Below are positions 51,570 to 60,854 of a DNA stretch of 64,000 bases, piece by piece; within the stretch, counting starts at the first letter, position 1, and every line of letters starts with the position of its first letter. The position numbers and the translations under genes were made by a program. The stretch is from positions 2,492,340 through 2,556,339 of the forward strand of contig CAVPRM010000002.1 in the NCBI GenBank assembly GCA_963707945.1, in the 5' to 3' direction. This stretch comes from an uncultured delta proteobacterium (GTDB taxonomy: Bacteria; Myxococcota_A; UBA9160; SZUA-336). The notes below the pieces were generated by a model. The model worked only from the letters and a program-made list of their open reading frames with translations. It was not told the origin of the DNA and did not search any database.

Positions 51570-53265
51570 ATGTCCTGGCAGGCCTCGATCGCCTACTTCT
51601 CGATGGAGATCGCCCTCGAGCCCGGGCTGCCGACCTACGCGGGCGGGCTCGGCGTGCTGGCGGGCGACATGCTGCATTCCGCCGCAGACGACGGCCTGCC
51701 GGTCGTCGGGGTCTCGCTCGTGCACCGGCAGGGCTACTTCCGCCAGCGAATCGGGCCGAGCGGCGAGCAGCTCGAAGAGGCGTGGGCATGGGATCCCGGG
51801 GTGCGACTCTCGGAGATGCGCCAGCGCACGCACGTCGAGATCGAGGACCGCAAGGTCGCGATCCGCGCCTGGCGCTACTCCGTCGAGGGGGTCGGCGGCT
51901 CGACCGTCCCGGTCTTCCTGCTCGACACGGATCTGCCCGAGAACACCGCGACAGATCGCGCCATCACAAACGCGCTCTACGGCGGCGACGAGCGCAACCG
52001 ACTGTACCAGGAGATCGTGCTCGGGATCGGCGGGGTGCGCATGCTGCGCGAGCTCGGCTTCGCCACCGTGCGCCGCTTCCACATGAACGAGGGTCACTCG
52101 AGCCTGCTCACGCTCGAACTCCTCCGCGAGCGGATGATCCTGCACGGGACGACGGTGGTCAGCGACGACGACGTGCGAGCGGTGCGCGAGATGTGCGTCT
52201 TCACGACGCACACCCCCGTCGAGGCCGCGGTCGATCGCTATCCGGTCGATCTCGTGCAGCGCGTGCTGTGCGCGCACCGTTGCCTTCCGATCGTGTCTAC
52301 GTTCGCGCTCGATGGCGTCCTCAACCTGACCCATCTCGCGCTCAGCTTGAGCCACTACGTCAACGGCGTCGGAAAGCGCCACGGCGAGGTCGCGCGCCAC
52401 ACCTACCCGCTGCAGCAGATCGACTCGATCACGAACGGCGTTCGGCCCGCCACCTGGGCCGCTCCGTCGTTCCAGGCGCTCTTCGATCGCTTCATCCCCG
52501 ACTGGCGCAACGACGCCGCGGGGCTGCGGCGTGCGCTCGCGATCCCGCGCGACGCCGTGCGCGAGGCACACGCGCTCGCGAAGCGCGCACTCGTCGCAGC
52601 GCATCGCGGCGGCGCTCCAGGTGACGCTCGACGAGAAGCTCCCGATCTTGGGCCTCGCGCGGCGCATGACTCCGTACAAGCGGGTCGACCTGATCTTCCG
52701 CGACCTCGCGCGGCTCGAGAAGATCGCGAGCGACTGCGGCGGGCTGCAGGTGGTGGTGGGCGGAAAGGCGCACCCGAGCGACGAAGGCGGGAAGGCGGTC
52801 GTGCGGCGCTTGACCGGAATCGCGCGCGCCTCCACCGGCGCGCTGCGCGTGGTCTTCGTGCCCGACTACGACTTGGAGTGGGCGCGCTATTTCGTGTCGG
52901 GCTCGGATCTCTGGGTCAACACACCGGAGCCGCCGCTCGAAGCCTCCGGGACGAGCGGAATGAAGGCCGCGGTCAACGGCGTTCCCTCGCTCAGCATCCT
53001 CGACGGCTGGTGGGTCGAGGGCTGGATCGAGGGCGTGACGGGCTGGTCGGTCGAGCGCCACCCCAACAACCGGCACGAAGCGACCTCCGCCGCTCTCGAC
53101 GCCGAGTCGCTGTACGAGAAGCTCGAGCTCGTGATCCTGCCGATCCTGACCGGCGACCAGGCGCACTTCGCCGAGGTCATGCGCAGCGCGATCGCGCTGA
53201 ACGCGTCGTACTTCAACACCGAGCGCATGCTGGACCAGTACGTCGTGCGCGCGTACTTCCGTTAG
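51570..53265 (+). CDS. glgP: Alpha-glucan phosphorylase (GlgP family); one extra base near 52595
   Basis: IAYFSMEIALEPGLPTYAGGLGVLAGD... runs to ...AHALAKRALV, then QRIAAALQVTLDEKLPILGLARRMTPYKR...EASGTSGMKAAVNGV... continues in the frame of ORF 52531..53265. The span is 3n+1 nt long. Confidence 0.85.
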
Positions 53266-56959: not shown

Positions 56960-57929
56960 ATGCACCGCGTGGTGATCGTGGCGACCGACGGCGTGATCCC
57001 CTTCGACCTGGCGACGCCTTACGAGGTGTTCGCGAGCGTGCGGCTGCGCGATGGAAGCTGCGGCTATCGGGTGCGCGTGTGCGGCACCGCGAAGGAGGTC
57101 GACGCGGGCGGATTCCGCATGAAGCTCCGCTACGGGCTCGACGAGCTCGGGCGCGCGGACACGATCGTGTTGGCCGGGGTCGGGGATCTCGGCGCGCCGG
57201 TGCCGGAGACTGCTGCTCCGCGCCGTGCGCCGCGCTGCGGCGCGCGGGGTGCGGGTGGCTTCGACCTGCAGCGGCGCGTTCCTGTTCGCGGCGACCGGGC
57301 TCCTCGACGGACGGCGCGCGACGACCCACTGGCGGGCGGCACCCGAGCTCGCGCGGCGCTACCCGGAGGTTCACGTCGACCCCGACGTGCTCTACGTGGA
57401 CGAGGGTCAGTTCCTCACCTCGGCCGGTGCGGCGGCCGCGTTCGATCTCTGCCTGCACATGGTGCGGCGCGACTACGGATCCGAGGCCGCCGTCGCCGCG
57501 GCGCGCGCGTCGGTCATGCCGCTCGAGCGCGACGGCGGACAGTCCCAGTTCATCACGCACGCGCCGCCGACTCCCGACGGCGCCTCCCTCTCGCCGCTGC
57601 TCGCGTGGCTCGAGGGGAACCTGCACGCGCCGCTCACGCTGGACGCGATCGCGAAGCGCGCCGCCGCGAGCGTGCGCAGCTTGAACCGGCGCTTCCGCGA
57701 TCAGACCGGGACCACGCCGCTCCAGTGGCTGCTGCGCGCCCGCGTGCGGCGCGCGCAACTCCTGCTCGAGACCACTGCGCATTCGGTCGACCGGATTGCC
57801 GCGACCGCCGGCTTCGGCTCGGCCACGAGCCTCCGCGAGCACTTCCGCCGGGTCGTGGCCACCAGCCCGCAGGCGTATCGTCGCGCGTTCCGCAGCCGCT
57901 CCCGCCCGCGTGCGCCCCGTCACGGGTGA
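56960..57929 (+). CDS. GlxA-family regulator (DJ-1/PfpI domain + AraC HTH); one extra base at about 57209
   Basis: MHRVVIVATDGVIPFDLATPYEVF...IVLAGVGDLGAPVPE, then LLLRAVRRAAARGVRVASTCSGAFLFAATGLLDGRRATTHW...LDAIAKRAAASVRSLNRRFRDQTGTTPLQWLL... continues in the frame of ORF 57225..57929. The span is 3n+1 nt long. Confidence 0.8.
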
Positions 57930-58008
57930 AACCAAAACGGGGATGCAACGTACTGTCTGGTGGCCTCTGCGCAGTCGCGCACGACCACTTCGAGGCCAGG
58001 AGGACGGA

Positions 58009-58281
58009 ATGGCGCGTTCGATGCTCGGAATTCTGGCCGCGGGTGCGGTCGCGAGTCTGCTCGCCGGCGGGGCGTTCGCCGCGGACGACAAGATGGGCGG
58101 CGGCATGGGCGGCATGGACGCCAAGGCCTGCTACCGCTCGCACTGCGGCAAGAGCGTGAGCGGCTACGAAGGCAAGTGCGGCGGCACCATGATCGATCAG
58201 CTCAAGACCGAGAAGGCGTGCACGGACGCCGGCGGCGCCTGGGCCACGGCCGACGAAGCGAAGAAGTTCGAAAAGAAGTGA
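58009..58281 (+). CDS. Candidate RiPP precursor: Sec-exported, Met/Gly-rich, 4-Cys peptide with EGKCG motif (HvfA/bufferin-like)
   Basis: ATG 58009 lies 5-6 nt after AGGAGGA. MARSMLGILAAGAVASLLAGGAFA|ADDKMGGGMGGMDAKACYRSHCGKSVSGYEGKCGGTMIDQLKTEKACTDAGGAWATADEAKKFEKK. It sits 25 nt upstream of the MNIO gene. Confidence 0.65.
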   Translation: MARSMLGILAAGAVASLLAGGAFAADDKMGGGMGGMDAKACYRSHCGKSVSGYEGKCGGTMIDQLKTEKACTDAGGAWATADEAKKFEKK

Positions 58282-58306
58282 AGAGCTGAGTTCTCGGCCG
58301 CTCCGC

Positions 58307-59928
58307 ATGGCGAACCCACGCTTCGGCGTCGGCTTCCGCACGCCCCACCTCGGAGCGCTGCTCGTCGCCGAGCGGCCGCCGGAGTGGCTCGAGCTCGTGA
58401 CCGAGAACTTCCTCGGCAAGGGCGGCGCGCAGCGCACGCTGCTCGCGCGCGTTTGCGAGCGGGCGCCGGTGGCGCTGCACGGCGTCTCTCTGTCGATTGC
58501 GGGCACCGACCCACTCGACCTGGACTACCTGCGCGAGCTGCGCGCGCTCGCGGACGCGGTGCGGCCCGAGTTCGTGAGCGACCACCTGGCGTGGACGGGG
58601 CTCGGCGGCCGCGAGTCGCACGATCTCCTGCCGGTCGCACTGACCCGCGACGTGCTCGACCACGTCGCCGAGCGCGTCGCGCGCGTGCAAGATGCGCTCG
58701 GCCGCCGCATCCTGCTCGAGAACACGACGGTCTACGTGGCGTTCCGCGCCGACGAGATGAGCGAGGCCGAGCTCTTGCGCGCGCTCTGCGAGCGCACCGG
58801 TTGCGGCGTGCTGCTCGACGTGAACAATCTCTACGTGAACTCCGAGAACCTCGGCGTCGACCCGCGCGCGTACCTGGCGGCGCTCCCGCGAGCCGGGGTC
58901 GGCTACATGCACCTGGCCGGCCACGCGCGGCTCGCCGACGTGCGCATCGACACGCACGACGCCGACGTGCCCGACCCGGTGTGGGACCTGTACGCAGCCG
59001 CGGTGCGCCGCTTCCCCGACGCCGGCGCGATCGTCGAGCGCGACGACAAGCTGCCGCCGTTCGCGGATCTGTGTCGCGAGGCGGAGGCCGCGCAGCTGTG
59101 GCACGCGCACGAGCGCCTCCACGCCTGCGAGGAGCCCGTCCGCGGGCCGGCCGCGGCGGGCCTTCGCCCGCACGGCTCGAAATCGTGGCACGACCTGCAG
59201 TGCGCGCTCTGGAGCCGGGTCGTCGACGAACCGGCCGCCGCGGACGTCGAGCCGCTGTTCGCGGACGACCGCCCCGTGCGCGCCGCACGCGGGCTGCGGG
59301 TGTACGGCGACGCCTACGGTGAGAACCTGCGCCGCGCGCTCGCCACGAACTTCCCGGCGCTCGCACGCGTGTTGTCGGCGAGCGAGTTCGCCGACCTCGC
59401 CGCCGCCTACGTGCGCGCGCACCCGCCGCGCGGACGCGACTACGTCGGGCTGGGCGCCGAGCTGACGGGCTTCCTCCAGACGCATCCGCAGCCGAGCGCG
59501 CTGGCCGACCTGGCGGCGCTCGAACAGGCGCAGCTCGAGGTGCAGGACGCGCCGGACGAGACCGTGCTCGTGCACGCCAGAGGACGCTCGCGGCGATCCC
59601 GGCCGAGAAGTGGGCCGGCGCGCGCTTCGTCTTCGCGCGGGCGCTGCGGCTGGTTCGCACGGCCCACGACGTGCTCCCGGTCGTGCGAGGCGAGTCGGCG
59701 GCGCGGCCCCGGCGCGAGGAGGTCTGCTATCGGGTCGAGCGCCGCATCAGCGGCGTGCACGCGGAACGCCTGAACGCGCTGGACGCGGCGCTCCTGGGAG
59801 CGCTCGCGGCGGGCGAGAGCTTCGCCGACGCGTGCGCGTCGCGCGGCGAGCCCGAGTGCGCGCAAGCAGCCGCGGCTCTGCTCCTGCGCGCGAGCTCGCT
59901 CGGCCTTCTCGCTGCCCTGCAGCTCTAG
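58307..59928 (+). CDS. Fused MNIO (DUF692) - DUF2063 RiPP maturase; one base missing near 59580
   Basis: DUF692 hallmarks GVGFRTPH, WLELVTENF, LHGVSLSIAG, VSDHLAW, HDLLPVA, ILLENTTVY, GCGVLLDVNNLYVN, MHLAGH, IDTHD and VERDD. Then DUF2063-like RGLRVYGDAYGENLRRALATNFPAL...FADLAAAYVRAHPP. The tail RTLAAIPAEKWAGARFVFARALRLVRTAHDVLPVVRG...LGLLAALQL* is in the frame of ORF 59671..59928. The span is 3n+2 nt long. Confidence 0.85.
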
Positions 59929-59987
59929 AGCCGACAGATCAGCGCCGGAGGCGTGCCTGCGTCAACGCGACCAGGCGTTCGCTGCGC

Positions 59988-60854
59988 CTAGCGCCTCTGT
60001 GGCTCGCTCTCCAGCTCCCACACGTTGAACGCCGCGTCCAGCCGCGCTGCGCGGCGCTTCAGGATCGCGCGCTGCTCGGGGTGGGTCAGGATGTAGAGCT
60101 CGCGGCGCTCGATCGCGCGAACCACGCGGCGCGCGAGCTCCTCGGGCTGGATGGTGCCGCCGACCAGCGGCGGCGCGTCGCCGCCGGTCTGCGGGATGTC
60201 GGTGCCCGCCGGGTTGCGCAGCTCGGCCGGGCGCATGCGCAGCGAGTTCTCGTTGATGTTGGTCGCGACGACCATGGGGCATAGCACGGAGACGCCGATG
60301 CCCTGGTCGCGCAGCTCGACGAAGAGCGACTCGGTGAGACCGACGACGGCGAACTTCGACGCGCAGTACACGCCGAGCCAGCGCATGCCCACGAGCCCGG
60401 CCATCGACGCGGTGTTCACCACGTGGCCGCCCTGGCCCTGCTCCAGAAGGCGCGGCACGAAGGTCTGCACGCCGTTCACGACGCCCCAGAAGTTCACGTT
60501 CATCGTGAACTCCCAGTCCTTGCGCGTAGCCTTGGCGATCGGCCCGAAGGTGGCGATGCCGGCGTTGTTGCAGACGATGTGGACGGCGCCGAACCGGCGC
60601 ACCGTCGCCTCGGCCAGCGCCTCGACGCTCGCGGGCTTCGACACGTCGGTCGCGACGCCGTGCGCCTGCGCGCCCGACTTCTCGAGCTCGCGCACCGCCG
60701 CGGCAAGCGCGGGCTCGTCGAGATCGGCGAGGACGATCCTGGCGCCGCGCGCCGCGAACGCGCGGGCCATGGCCATGCCGATGCCGCCTGCGCCGCCGGT
60801 GATCACCGCCACACGATCCTTGAAGGGGTCCATGGCCGCGATCATACACGCCAA
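59988..60854 (-). CDS. SDR-family oxidoreductase
   Basis: VAVITGGAGGIGMA, NNAG and YCASKFAV. The start may be the internal ATG at 60833. Confidence 0.85.
   Translation of the reverse strand: MACMIAAMDPFKDRVAVITGGAGGIGMAMARAFAARGARIVLADLDEPALAAAVRELEKSGAQAHGVATDVSKPASVEALAEATVRRFGAVHIVCNNAGIATFGPIAKATRKDWEFTMNVNFWGVVNGVQTFVPRLLEQGQGGHVVNTASMAGLVGMRWLGVYCASKFAVVGLTESLFVELRDQGIGVSVLCPMVVATNINENSLRMRPAELRNPAGTDIPQTGGDAPPLVGGTIQPEELARRVVRAIERRELYILTHPEQRAILKRRAARLDAAFNVWELESEPQRR

What the first reader, a model, noticed from the sequence alone, without database searches (positions are those of the whole stretch)
58009..58281. Precursor combines a methionine/glycine-rich MGGGMGGM stretch with one exact EGKCG motif and three other Cys
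Seen: the mature region is ADDKMGGGMGGMDAKACYRSHCGKSVSGYEGKCGGTMIDQLKTEKACTDAGGAWATADEAKKFEKK. Cys-to-Cys gaps are 4, 10 and 13 residues. Established: Met-rich motifs are Cu(I) ligands in periplasmic copper proteins such as CopC, PcoE and CusF. EGKCG surrounds the modified Cys in HvfA-type precursors. Inference: this is a hybrid design with thioether Met ligands plus MNIO-modified Cys. It may be a distinct precursor class or a minimal single-site version.
Basis: partly seen in the sequence, partly recalled or inferred. Interest (0 to 1): 0.6.

Follow-up and report, generated by a model that had tools for sequence, protein, structure and literature searches.

The report
Unrecognised four-cysteine bufferin-like copper peptide precursor
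This small exported four-cysteine peptide belongs to a previously unlabelled family found only in one class of Myxococcota and always sits just upstream of a fused iron-enzyme/partner gene of the bufferin type, so it is most likely a copper-binding modified peptide, while its methionine-rich stretch is a variable add-on rather than a family feature.

Summary
ORF 58009-58281 encodes a 90-aa peptide with a Sec signal peptide (…AFA|ADDK), the stretch MGGGMGGM, one EGKCG motif and four Cys with gaps of 4, 10 and 13 residues.

It belongs to a compact family: about 120 clusters at 90% identity, found in soil and sediment MAGs of one class of Myxococcota. The family matches no Pfam or NCBIfam model. 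All four Cys are invariant, and EGKCG is nearly so.

In 30 of 30 loci a gene begins 32-138 nt downstream that encodes an MNIO enzyme fused to its DUF2063 partner. The MNIO half scores above NCBI's BufB cut-off and below the HvfB cut-off.

AlphaFold places Cys I in the first strand, Cys IV in a short helix and Cys II/III in loops. That is the Buf1 layout. By sequence, however, the family is neither DUF2282 nor an HvfA-type repeat protein.

The Met/Gly stretch is not conserved. 53 of 116 members have no Met in the mature part. Met-rich variants arose at least five times, and here the stretch sits on a 9-bp tandem repeat.

In this window the maturase gene carries a frameshift at 59561-59586, probably an assembly error.

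Verdict: a new variant of the known bufferin/captophorin kind. The proposed "Met + Cys hybrid design" is at most a trait of some lineages.

The parts
57998..58004 (+). Shine-Dalgarno AGGAGGA, 4 nt before the ATG
   Evidence: read from the sequence
58009..58080 (+). Sec-type signal peptide, residues 1-24, ending in AFA before the predicted cleavage site; no lipobox Cys
   Evidence: the n/h/c pattern is conserved in the family alignment; SignalP was not run
58081..58281 (+). Mature peptide, residues 25-90, plus stop codon. The conserved core is K-A-C-Y-R-x-x-C-G-K-S-V-x-G-H/Y-E-G-K-C-G-G-T…C-x-x-A-G-G-A-W-T/A-T
58093..58116 (+). MGGGMGGM stretch in the variable linker. It is encoded partly by a 9-bp tandem repeat, GGCGGCATG x2.1, at 58099-58117
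   Evidence: close relatives read MGGGM, MGGGGM or MGGGMGGGM
58129..58146 (+). Cys I (C41, in KACY) and Cys II (C46, in HCGK); together the invariant C-x4-C
   Evidence: C41 lies in the first beta strand of the model
58168..58182 (+). EGKCG motif holding Cys III (C57)
   Evidence: of 116 sequences, E in 95, G in 113, K in 112, C in 116, G in 113
58219..58221 (+). Cys IV (C71), inside predicted helix 68-74
58307..59586 (+). First frame of the fused maturase gene. The MNIO domain is residues 6-263 and the DUF2063/HvfC_N domain is residues 315-390
   Evidence: NF050167 320.9 bits, PF05114 316 bits, PF09836 53.9 bits; one search gives the alignment to intact 546-573 aa homologues
59561..59586 (+). 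Zone in which the maturase reading frame shifts. The window is 2 nt longer (equivalently 1 nt short) compared with relatives
59587..59928 (+). C-terminal (RRE-like) part of the partner domain, read in the other frame, ending at the stop 59926-59928
   Evidence: 46-49% identity to residues about 434-531 of intact homologues

Best explanation
The ORF encodes the precursor of a bufferin-like (captophorin-class) ribosomal peptide metallophore.

Proposed steps:
1. In the cytoplasm, the downstream enzyme binds the precursor. This enzyme is a single polypeptide that joins a BufB-type multinuclear non-haem iron oxidase to its DUF2063/RRE partner.
2. The enzyme oxidatively converts cysteines into 5-thiooxazole heterocycles. 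The most likely targets are the two central ones: C46 in HCGK and C57 in EGKCG.
3. The Sec system exports the peptide and the signal peptide is cut after AFA.
4. C41 and C71 form a disulfide that pins a small alpha/beta fold.
5. The two heterocycle thiolates chelate copper in the periplasm and buffer excess metal.

The Met/Gly-rich tail of this lineage is a fast-evolving, slippage-prone extension. It may add weak Cu(I) capture but is not part of the conserved machinery.

Shown here: family membership, invariant residues, strict gene linkage, the BufB-type enzyme, the natural fusion and the predicted fold layout. Inferred: which Cys are modified, the chemistry and the metal.
For: - The precursor has a Sec signal peptide and four invariant Cys.
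- The MNIO-DUF2063 fusion starts 32-138 nt downstream in 30 of 30 loci. The reverse association held in 3 of 3 sampled fused maturases.
- The fused enzymes score 317-321 bits on NF050167 'MNIO family bufferin maturase' (cut-off 310), but only 207-241 on the HvfB model (cut-off 360).
- The motifs HGVSLSIAG, SDHL, LLEN, LLDVNN, HLAGHA, IDTH and ERD, conserved across the aligned homologues, are all present in the window's enzyme. That they include the iron ligands rests on my knowledge of MNIO enzymes and was not tested here.
- The AF2 model of the core has pLDDT 73-87. C41 is in strand 40-42, C46 and C57 are in loops, and C71 is in helix 68-74.
- The genome's own DUF2282 BufA1 gives the same layout: C37 in the strand, C48 and C55 in loops, C76 in the helix.
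- The published Buf1 has a disulfide between the first strand and the short helix, and thiooxazoles on the central Cys (PMC11626156).
- Cys II and Cys III are each followed by Gly. FonBC prefers a small residue after the modified Cys (PMC13097082).
- All characterised MNIO-PME1 systems install 5-thiooxazoles and bind Cu (PMC13097082).
- An engineered HvfB-HvfC fusion in the same domain order is active (10.64898/2026.07.17.739211).
Against: - There is no experimental datum for any member of this family.
- The precursor matches no bufferin model. hhalign against DUF2282 aligns only the signal peptide and the 'KCY' (probability 52%), so the Buf1 analogy rests on predicted topology.
- I could not read the model's coordinates, so the C41-C71 distance was not measured.
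- There is no DoxX gene, no ECF sigma/anti-sigma pair and no conserved copper gene next to the cassette. Flanks vary, so the copper link is by analogy only. One relative has a multicopper oxidase next door.
- In this window the maturase is frameshifted, so the system may be inactive in this organism if the shift is real.
Confidence: 0.7

Rival explanations
1. It is a minimal, single-site version of an HvfA/oxazolin-type precursor. Only the Cys of the EGKCG motif (C57) is modified, and the other three Cys are structural.
For: EGKCG is the motif modified in HvfA, FonA and the gonococcal peptide (PMC13097082). It is nearly invariant in this family.
Against: - The enzyme is BufB-type, not HvfB-type, by NCBIfam cut-offs.
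- HvfA-type proteins carry repeated EGKCG motifs in 17-residue repeats (PMC12452194). Here there is only one.
- FonBC did not modify a substrate with a single repeat in vitro.
- C46 is also invariant, followed by Gly, and lies in a loop.
- With three unmodified Cys, one would be left unpaired.
Confidence: 0.15
2. One reading: in this lineage the Met-rich tail and other added Met residues are true Cu(I) thioether ligands that work together with the modified Cys.
For: - Met enrichment recurs independently. 16 of 116 members have 3 or more Met, which needs at least 5 changes on the tree.
- Added Met residues cluster in the linker and beside Cys: GGTM after Cys III, K-M-C-M-D around Cys IV, CYRM after Cys I.
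- P0037 has 7 Met.
- Some classical DUF2282 bufferins also carry AMDGMDAK… linkers.
- That Met-rich motifs bind Cu(I) in CopC, PcoE and CusF is established knowledge.
Against: - The trait is not conserved. 53 of 116 members have no Met, and the family mean of 1.7% is about the background level.
- The stretch sits on a 9-bp tandem repeat whose copy number varies among near-identical relatives, as expected for neutral slippage.
- The linker has pLDDT below 50.
Confidence: 0.25
3. The cassette is a decaying pseudogene locus in this organism. The frameshift in the partner half of the maturase is real, so the precursor is made but not modified, or not expressed at all.
For: - The reading frame changes between 59561 and 59586, and the 58307 frame runs into Arg/Ser-rich junk.
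- Related contigs from other soil runs are 2 nt shorter there and read through.
Against: - The precursor and the whole MNIO half are intact and well conserved.
- Other genes in the window are also split. glgP is split, and the FtrA-like regulator is probably split too (its N-terminal piece gave no Pfam hit).
- The 3-contig, 4.93-Mb assembly scores only 74.8% complete, against 94-97% for same-genus genomes of equal size. This points to indel errors in a long-read assembly.
- The sample of origin was not among the available runs, so the question was not settled.
Confidence: 0.2
4. It is not a RiPP at all. It is a small disulfide-rich periplasmic protein that merely lies next to an MNIO gene.
For: The core is predicted to fold as a small protein, and four Cys could form two disulfides.
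Against: Gene adjacency is strict in both directions across roughly 47-93% sequence identity while the flanks vary. The partner domain is the peptide-recognition type found only with MNIO substrates (PMC12452194).
Confidence: 0.05

Closest known systems
Bufferin 1 (BufA1, DUF2282/PF10048) with BufB1/BufC1, from Caulobacter vibrioides (PMC11626156)
   Same: - It has a Sec signal peptide in place of a leader.
- The mature size is about 60-65 aa.
- It has four conserved Cys, with Cys I in the first strand ('KCY'), Cys IV in a short helix and Cys II/III in loops.
- The MNIO is BufB-type and scores above the NF050167 cut-off.
- The partner is DUF2063 plus an RRE-like part.
- Some BufA1 proteins have a similar M-D-G-M-D-A-K linker.
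   Different: - There is no PF10048 hit, even at E up to 10. hhalign finds no homology in the core.
- The Cys spacing is 4/10/13, against 10/6/20 in the genome's own BufA1 (sequence).
- There is an extra C-terminal strand and helix.
- The enzyme and partner are fused into one protein.
- No DoxX gene or sigma/anti-sigma genes are present.
- The same genome also carries a separate classical Buf1 cluster.
HvfA/oxazolin, fontiphorin and gonophorin (the Buf_EGKCG or 'Lys-Cys' captophorins; PMC11252979, PMC13097082, PMC12452194)
   Same: The pentapeptide EGKCG surrounds a Cys. The system depends on an MNIO plus a DUF2063 partner. The precursor is exported and Cys-based.
   Different: - There is one motif instead of tandem 17-residue repeats.
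- The predicted fold is globular, not a beta-helix or disordered repeats.
- The enzyme scores below the HvfB cut-off (239 against 360).
- Three further invariant Cys lie in non-EGKCG contexts.
The 'CxxxxC' signal-peptide precursor family of Antoine et al. 2025 (PMC12452194)
   Same: It has a signal peptide and a conserved C-x4-C (here C41-YRSH-C46). It is associated with an MNIO and a DUF2063 partner.
   Different: - That family is described with separate MNIO, DUF2063 and DoxX genes, and a Lactamase_B_2 gene in 54% of clusters. Its listed accessions include RefSeq WP_ entries.
- Here the enzyme is fused and there is no DoxX.
- Members here come only from uncultured Myxococcota MAGs, and none of the 120 clusters listed carried a RefSeq (WP_) name.
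- The authors' HMM and alignment are not held, so identity could not be tested.
Met-rich periplasmic Cu(I) binders (CopC, PcoE, CusF; from my own knowledge)
   Same: There is a short M-x-x-x-M-x-x-M type stretch in an exported protein.
   Different: The stretch is not conserved in the family, is disordered in the model, and is carried by a tandem DNA repeat. No homology was found.

Membership tests
Bufferin / captophorin class (MNIO-PME1-dependent exported Cys peptides) | The precursor has an N-terminal Sec signal peptide rather than a leader | tested here: met
   The sequence has a charged n-region, a hydrophobic core and AFA|A. The pattern is conserved in 116 sequences. SignalP was not run.
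Bufferin / captophorin class (MNIO-PME1-dependent exported Cys peptides) | An adjacent MNIO (PF05114) of the bufferin-maturase type | tested here: met
   NF050167 scores 320.9 bits against a cut-off of 310, and PF05114 scores 316 bits. This holds in 30 of 30 loci.
Bufferin / captophorin class (MNIO-PME1-dependent exported Cys peptides) | A PME-type 1 partner (DUF2063 plus an RRE-like domain) | tested here: met
   PF09836 scores 53.9 bits and the domain is fused to the MNIO. The full-length fusion is 546-573 aa in relatives. In the window the C-terminal part lies in another frame.
Bufferin / captophorin class (MNIO-PME1-dependent exported Cys peptides) | Cys converted to 5-thiooxazole; copper binding | not testable with these tools
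   This needs mass spectrometry, UV, NMR and metal-binding assays.
BufA1 (DUF2282, PF10048) | A match to the PF10048 profile | tested here: not met
   None of 32 family members hit it at E up to 10. The genome's own BufA1 scores 78.5 bits. hhalign aligns only the signal peptide and KCY, with probability 52%.
BufA1 (DUF2282, PF10048) | Four Cys, with the outer pair placed in the first strand and a short helix and the inner pair in loops | tested here: met
   Secondary-structure layouts of the two AF2 models agree. Distances were not measured.
HvfA / Buf_EGKCG / oxazolin | Repeated EGKCG motifs (two per 17-residue repeat), or a short EGKCG domain fused to EF-hands | tested here: not met
   There is one EGKCG per protein in all members and no repeats. 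The definition is from PMC12452194.
HvfA / Buf_EGKCG / oxazolin | An HvfB-type MNIO | tested here: not met
   NF003818 scores 239.3 bits against a cut-off of 360. Relatives score 207-241.
BufA2 (Buf_6/12Cys, NF050166) | A profile match and six or twelve conserved Cys | tested here: not met
   There is no NCBIfam hit at E up to 1, and there are only four Cys.
'CxxxxC' precursor family (PMC12452194) | A signal peptide plus a conserved CxxxxC | tested here: met
   C41-x4-C46 is invariant.
'CxxxxC' precursor family (PMC12452194) | A match to the authors' HMM; cluster content of separate MNIO, DUF2063, DoxX and often Lactamase_B_2 | tested here: inconclusive
   The HMM and alignment are not held. 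The cluster content differs: fused enzyme, no DoxX. The two NCBI accessions of this family are absent from the supplements, but those files were truncated when stored.
Met-rich Cu(I) motif proteins | A conserved Met motif | tested here: not met
   53 of 116 members have no Met in the mature part, and the linker columns are variable.

The most novel reading that the evidence does not exclude
This is a fourth, self-contained bufferin lineage: a two-gene cassette in which a natural single-chain BufB-BufC maturase serves a dedicated precursor. The precursor combines the Buf1 four-Cys fold with an HvfA-type EGKCG site. Its N-terminal tail repeatedly gains Met residues by repeat slippage, tuning Cu(I) capture. 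That would make it a natural experiment in how thioether and thiooxazole ligands are combined.
Probability: 0.25. Interest if true: 0.55.

Novelty: new variant of a known kind. Interest (0 to 1): 0.42.

Why it matters
Bufferins and captophorins are a recently defined and very large class of copper-binding modified peptides. Their precursor families are still being catalogued.

This family is invisible to current Pfam and NCBIfam models, so its genes are annotated as 'hypothetical protein' or not called at all.

It offers three practical things:
- A minimal two-gene system whose enzyme and partner are naturally fused. Researchers had to engineer this arrangement in HvfBC to obtain high activity.
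- A small, foldable substrate that places one EGKCG site and one different site (HCGK) on the same scaffold. This is useful for probing MNIO site selectivity.
- Natural variants with and without Met-rich tails, for testing whether thioethers assist thiooxazole-based copper binding.

It does not change the general picture of this RiPP class.

Tried and rejected
- Pfam and NCBIfam scans of the precursor, and of 32 family members at E up to 10, gave nothing relevant.
- A full phmmer scan of 1.84 billion representatives found only the family itself. Its two long hits, P0126 and P0135, are unrelated repeat proteins.
- hhalign against a 37-sequence DUF2282 alignment showed no homology in the core.
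- A Foldseek search of the model against the PDB gave no hit below E = 1.9.
- A promoter and terminator scan of 57700-60100 found nothing.
- I tried to judge assembly error by tblastn of ORFs from a same-genus contig against the window. Spurious ORFs in GC-rich DNA made it too noisy.
- No sequencing run held more than 9% of the locus's words, so the frameshift could be compared only with relatives' contigs.
- A weak hit in another family of the phylum (L037, E = 4.5e-4) is out-of-frame junk.
- The FtrA/AraC-type regulator upstream is not conserved next to the cassette in relatives. The convergent SDR is conserved only among close relatives, on the opposite strand, which indicates synteny rather than function.

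Full report
**Observation**

ORF 58009-58281 on the + strand starts four bases after an AGGAGGA box (57998-58004).
- Residues 1-24 form a typical Sec signal peptide ending in AFA.
- The mature part begins ADDKMGGGMGGMDAKACYRSHCGKSVSGYEGKCGG…
- The Cys are at positions 41, 46, 57 and 71, so the gaps of 4, 10 and 13 residues are correct.
- There is one exact EGKCG, at residues 54-58.

**A real, compact family**

A word-indexed search of 5.8 billion proteins returned 120 clusters, mostly of 80-98 aa, at 47-93% identity. None had a Pfam domain. The few names given were 'hypothetical protein' or 'low-complexity protein'. A full phmmer pass over 1.84 billion 50%-identity representatives found only about 20 representatives, all of this family except two spurious long repeat proteins.

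In an alignment of 116 sequences the four Cys are invariant. So are Y42, G47, K48, S49, G59, G75, G76, W78, T80 and A84. The EGKCG positions are E 95, G 113, K 112, C 116 and G 113 out of 116.

Records that carry names are Myxococcota or 'delta-proteobacterial' MAGs from soil and sediment. Among 401 genomes sampled across the phylum, 10 carry the gene. All 10 belong to the same class as the window's genome, and four of the six sampled genomes of its genus have it.

**Gene context**

A 488-codon ORF starts 25 nt downstream of the precursor.
- Residues 6-263 match PF05114 (316 bits) and NCBI's 'MNIO family bufferin maturase' model NF050167. The score is 320.9 bits against a cut-off of 310.
- The HvfB model scores 239.3 bits, below its cut-off of 360.
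- Residues 315-390 match DUF2063/HvfC_N.

The enzyme and its partner are therefore one polypeptide.

The same arrangement is found in every related locus. In 30 of 30 loci (about 22 distinct), the MNIO start lies 32-138 nt after the precursor on the same strand. Called genes there are 546-573 aa and carry both domains.

A search with an intact fusion protein found at least 351 clusters of 528-645 aa with both Pfam domains (the 120 listed are at 52% identity or more). Many lie on contigs whose lengths match those recorded for the precursors. Three further fusion genes on contigs not yet examined all have the family precursor just upstream.

Flanking genes vary, and there is no DoxX gene and no sigma/anti-sigma pair. 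The conserved unit is the two-gene cassette.

**Relation to known precursor families**

- The family gives no hit to DUF2282, BufA2 or any other Pfam or NCBIfam model, even at E = 10.
- Profile-profile comparison with a 37-sequence DUF2282 alignment aligns only the signal peptide and the first 'KCY' (probability 52%).
- HvfA-type proteins are defined by repeated EGKCG motifs (PMC12452194; PMC13097082). This family has a single motif and a BufB-type, not HvfB-type, enzyme.
- The 'CxxxxC' family of Antoine et al. shares the signal peptide and a C-x4-C. It is described with separate MNIO, DUF2063 and DoxX genes, often a Lactamase_B_2 gene, and RefSeq members.
- I could not obtain that family's HMM or alignment, so identity with it remains open but looks unlikely.

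**Fold**

AlphaFold2 with the family alignment gives a confident core (pLDDT 73-87 for residues 40-90).
- Strand 40-42 holds C41.
- Loops hold C46 and C57.
- Helix 68-74 holds C71.
- A further strand and helix follow.

The classical BufA1 encoded elsewhere in the same genome gives the same layout. Its strand 34-38 holds Cys I, its loops hold Cys II and III, and its helix 75-78 holds Cys IV.

This matches the published Buf1, which has a disulfide between the first strand and the short helix and thiooxazoles on the two central Cys (PMC11626156).

Cys II and Cys III are each followed by Gly here. That fits the preference for a small residue seen with FonBC. No solved structure resembles the model.

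**The Met/Gly stretch**

It lies in the linker between the signal peptide and the conserved core, which is the most variable part of the alignment.
- 53 of 116 members have no Met in the mature peptide. The mean Met content is 1.7%, and only 16 members have three or more.
- On a maximum-likelihood tree the Met-rich state needs 8 changes, at least 5 of them forced by well-supported branches. It has therefore arisen repeatedly.
- Added Met residues also appear beside Cys (GGTM, KMCMD, CYRM).
- In the window the stretch is encoded partly by a 9-bp tandem repeat, GGCGGCATG x2.1.
- Near-identical relatives read MGGGM, MGGGGM or MGGGMGGGM, as expected from slippage.
- Some ordinary DUF2282 bufferins carry a similar AMDGMDAKGAKEKCYG linker.

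A role for these Met residues in Cu(I) capture is possible. It is not a defining feature of the family.

**State of the locus in this genome**

Compared with intact homologues, the maturase frame changes between 59561 and 59586. The conserved C-terminal 113 residues are read in the frame that ends at 59928. Contigs of related strains from two other soil runs are 2 nt shorter in this zone and read through.

Other genes nearby are also split. The two halves of glgP both hit PF00343 in different frames. The FtrA-like regulator upstream probably lacks its first 100 profile positions in the called frame, although the N-terminal piece alone gave no Pfam hit.

The 3-contig, 4.93-Mb assembly scores 74.8% complete, against 94-97% for same-genus genomes of similar size. 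I therefore think the shift is most likely an assembly indel. I could not prove this, because the source reads were not among the available runs.

**Mechanism proposed**

1. The fused BufB-BufC enzyme recognises the precursor in the cytoplasm.
2. Its di- or tri-iron site and O2 convert C46 and C57 to 5-thiooxazoles.
3. Sec exports the peptide.
4. C41 and C71 form a disulfide.
5. The folded peptide chelates copper in the periplasm.

The gene linkage, enzyme type, natural fusion, invariant residues and predicted topology are shown here. The sites, chemistry and metal are inferred from Buf1, HvfA and FonA. An engineered HvfB-HvfC fusion in the same domain order is fully active and more active than the co-expressed pair. 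The natural fusion is therefore mechanistically plausible.

**Novelty**

The kind of system is known. Surveys already note hundreds of unclassified Cys-containing, signal-peptide ORFs next to MNIO genes.

What is new is a coherent, unlabelled precursor family with its own fused maturase clade. It combines a Buf1-like layout with an HvfA-like motif and is restricted to one class of Myxococcota.

I rate it a new variant of a known kind, of moderate interest.

Earlier first-stage notes on this genome had flagged the fused architecture and the frameshift. I checked both independently.

Noticed in passing
window 59561-59586: The fused MNIO-DUF2063 gene changes reading frame here. Relatives' contigs are 2 nt shorter and read through. 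This is probably an assembly indel, but that is not proven.
   Followed up: yes
window 51570-53265: The alpha-glucan phosphorylase gene is split into two ORFs in different frames. Both hit PF00343, at profile positions 22-89 and 453-583.
   Followed up: partly
window 56960-57929: The FtrA/GlxA-type AraC regulator appears split. ORF 57225-57929 matches FtrA profile positions 100-325 only. A DJ-1-like N-terminus is read in another frame from 56960, although that piece alone gave no Pfam hit. The regulator is not conserved next to the cassette in relatives.
   Followed up: partly
own genome G000, contig C1, 416670-417642 (-), loci L018/L021: The same genome also carries a classical Buf1 cluster. 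It has a DUF2282 precursor (78.5 bits), a separate BufB (344.8 bits on NF050167) and a separate DUF2063 gene. The organism therefore has two bufferin-type systems.
   Followed up: partly
L016 8007-9263, L017 8007-9263, L044 4710-5930: In some lineages an MFS_1/MFS_3 transporter gene overlaps the stop of the fused maturase by 4 nt. This suggests a three-gene operon variant.
   Followed up: no
L046 2500-7056: In one relative the cassette has a multicopper oxidase gene directly downstream (convergent), followed by a Lactamase_B gene. The precursor there is frameshifted inside its signal peptide; the contig name suggests a long-read assembly.
   Followed up: no
L008 / L033 (genome G313) and L038: One genome has two copies of the cassette. 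In the copy near a contig end, similarity to the MNIO stops after about 59 residues. This may be a truncation or a misassembly.
   Followed up: no
window 59988-60854 (-): A convergent SDR-family oxidoreductase gene downstream is conserved at 77-87% identity in close relatives (L001, L002, L004, L013), but not in more distant ones.
   Followed up: partly
window 58099-58117: A 9-bp tandem repeat, GGCGGCATG x2.1, encodes part of the Met/Gly stretch. Its copy number varies among near-identical relatives.
   Followed up: yes
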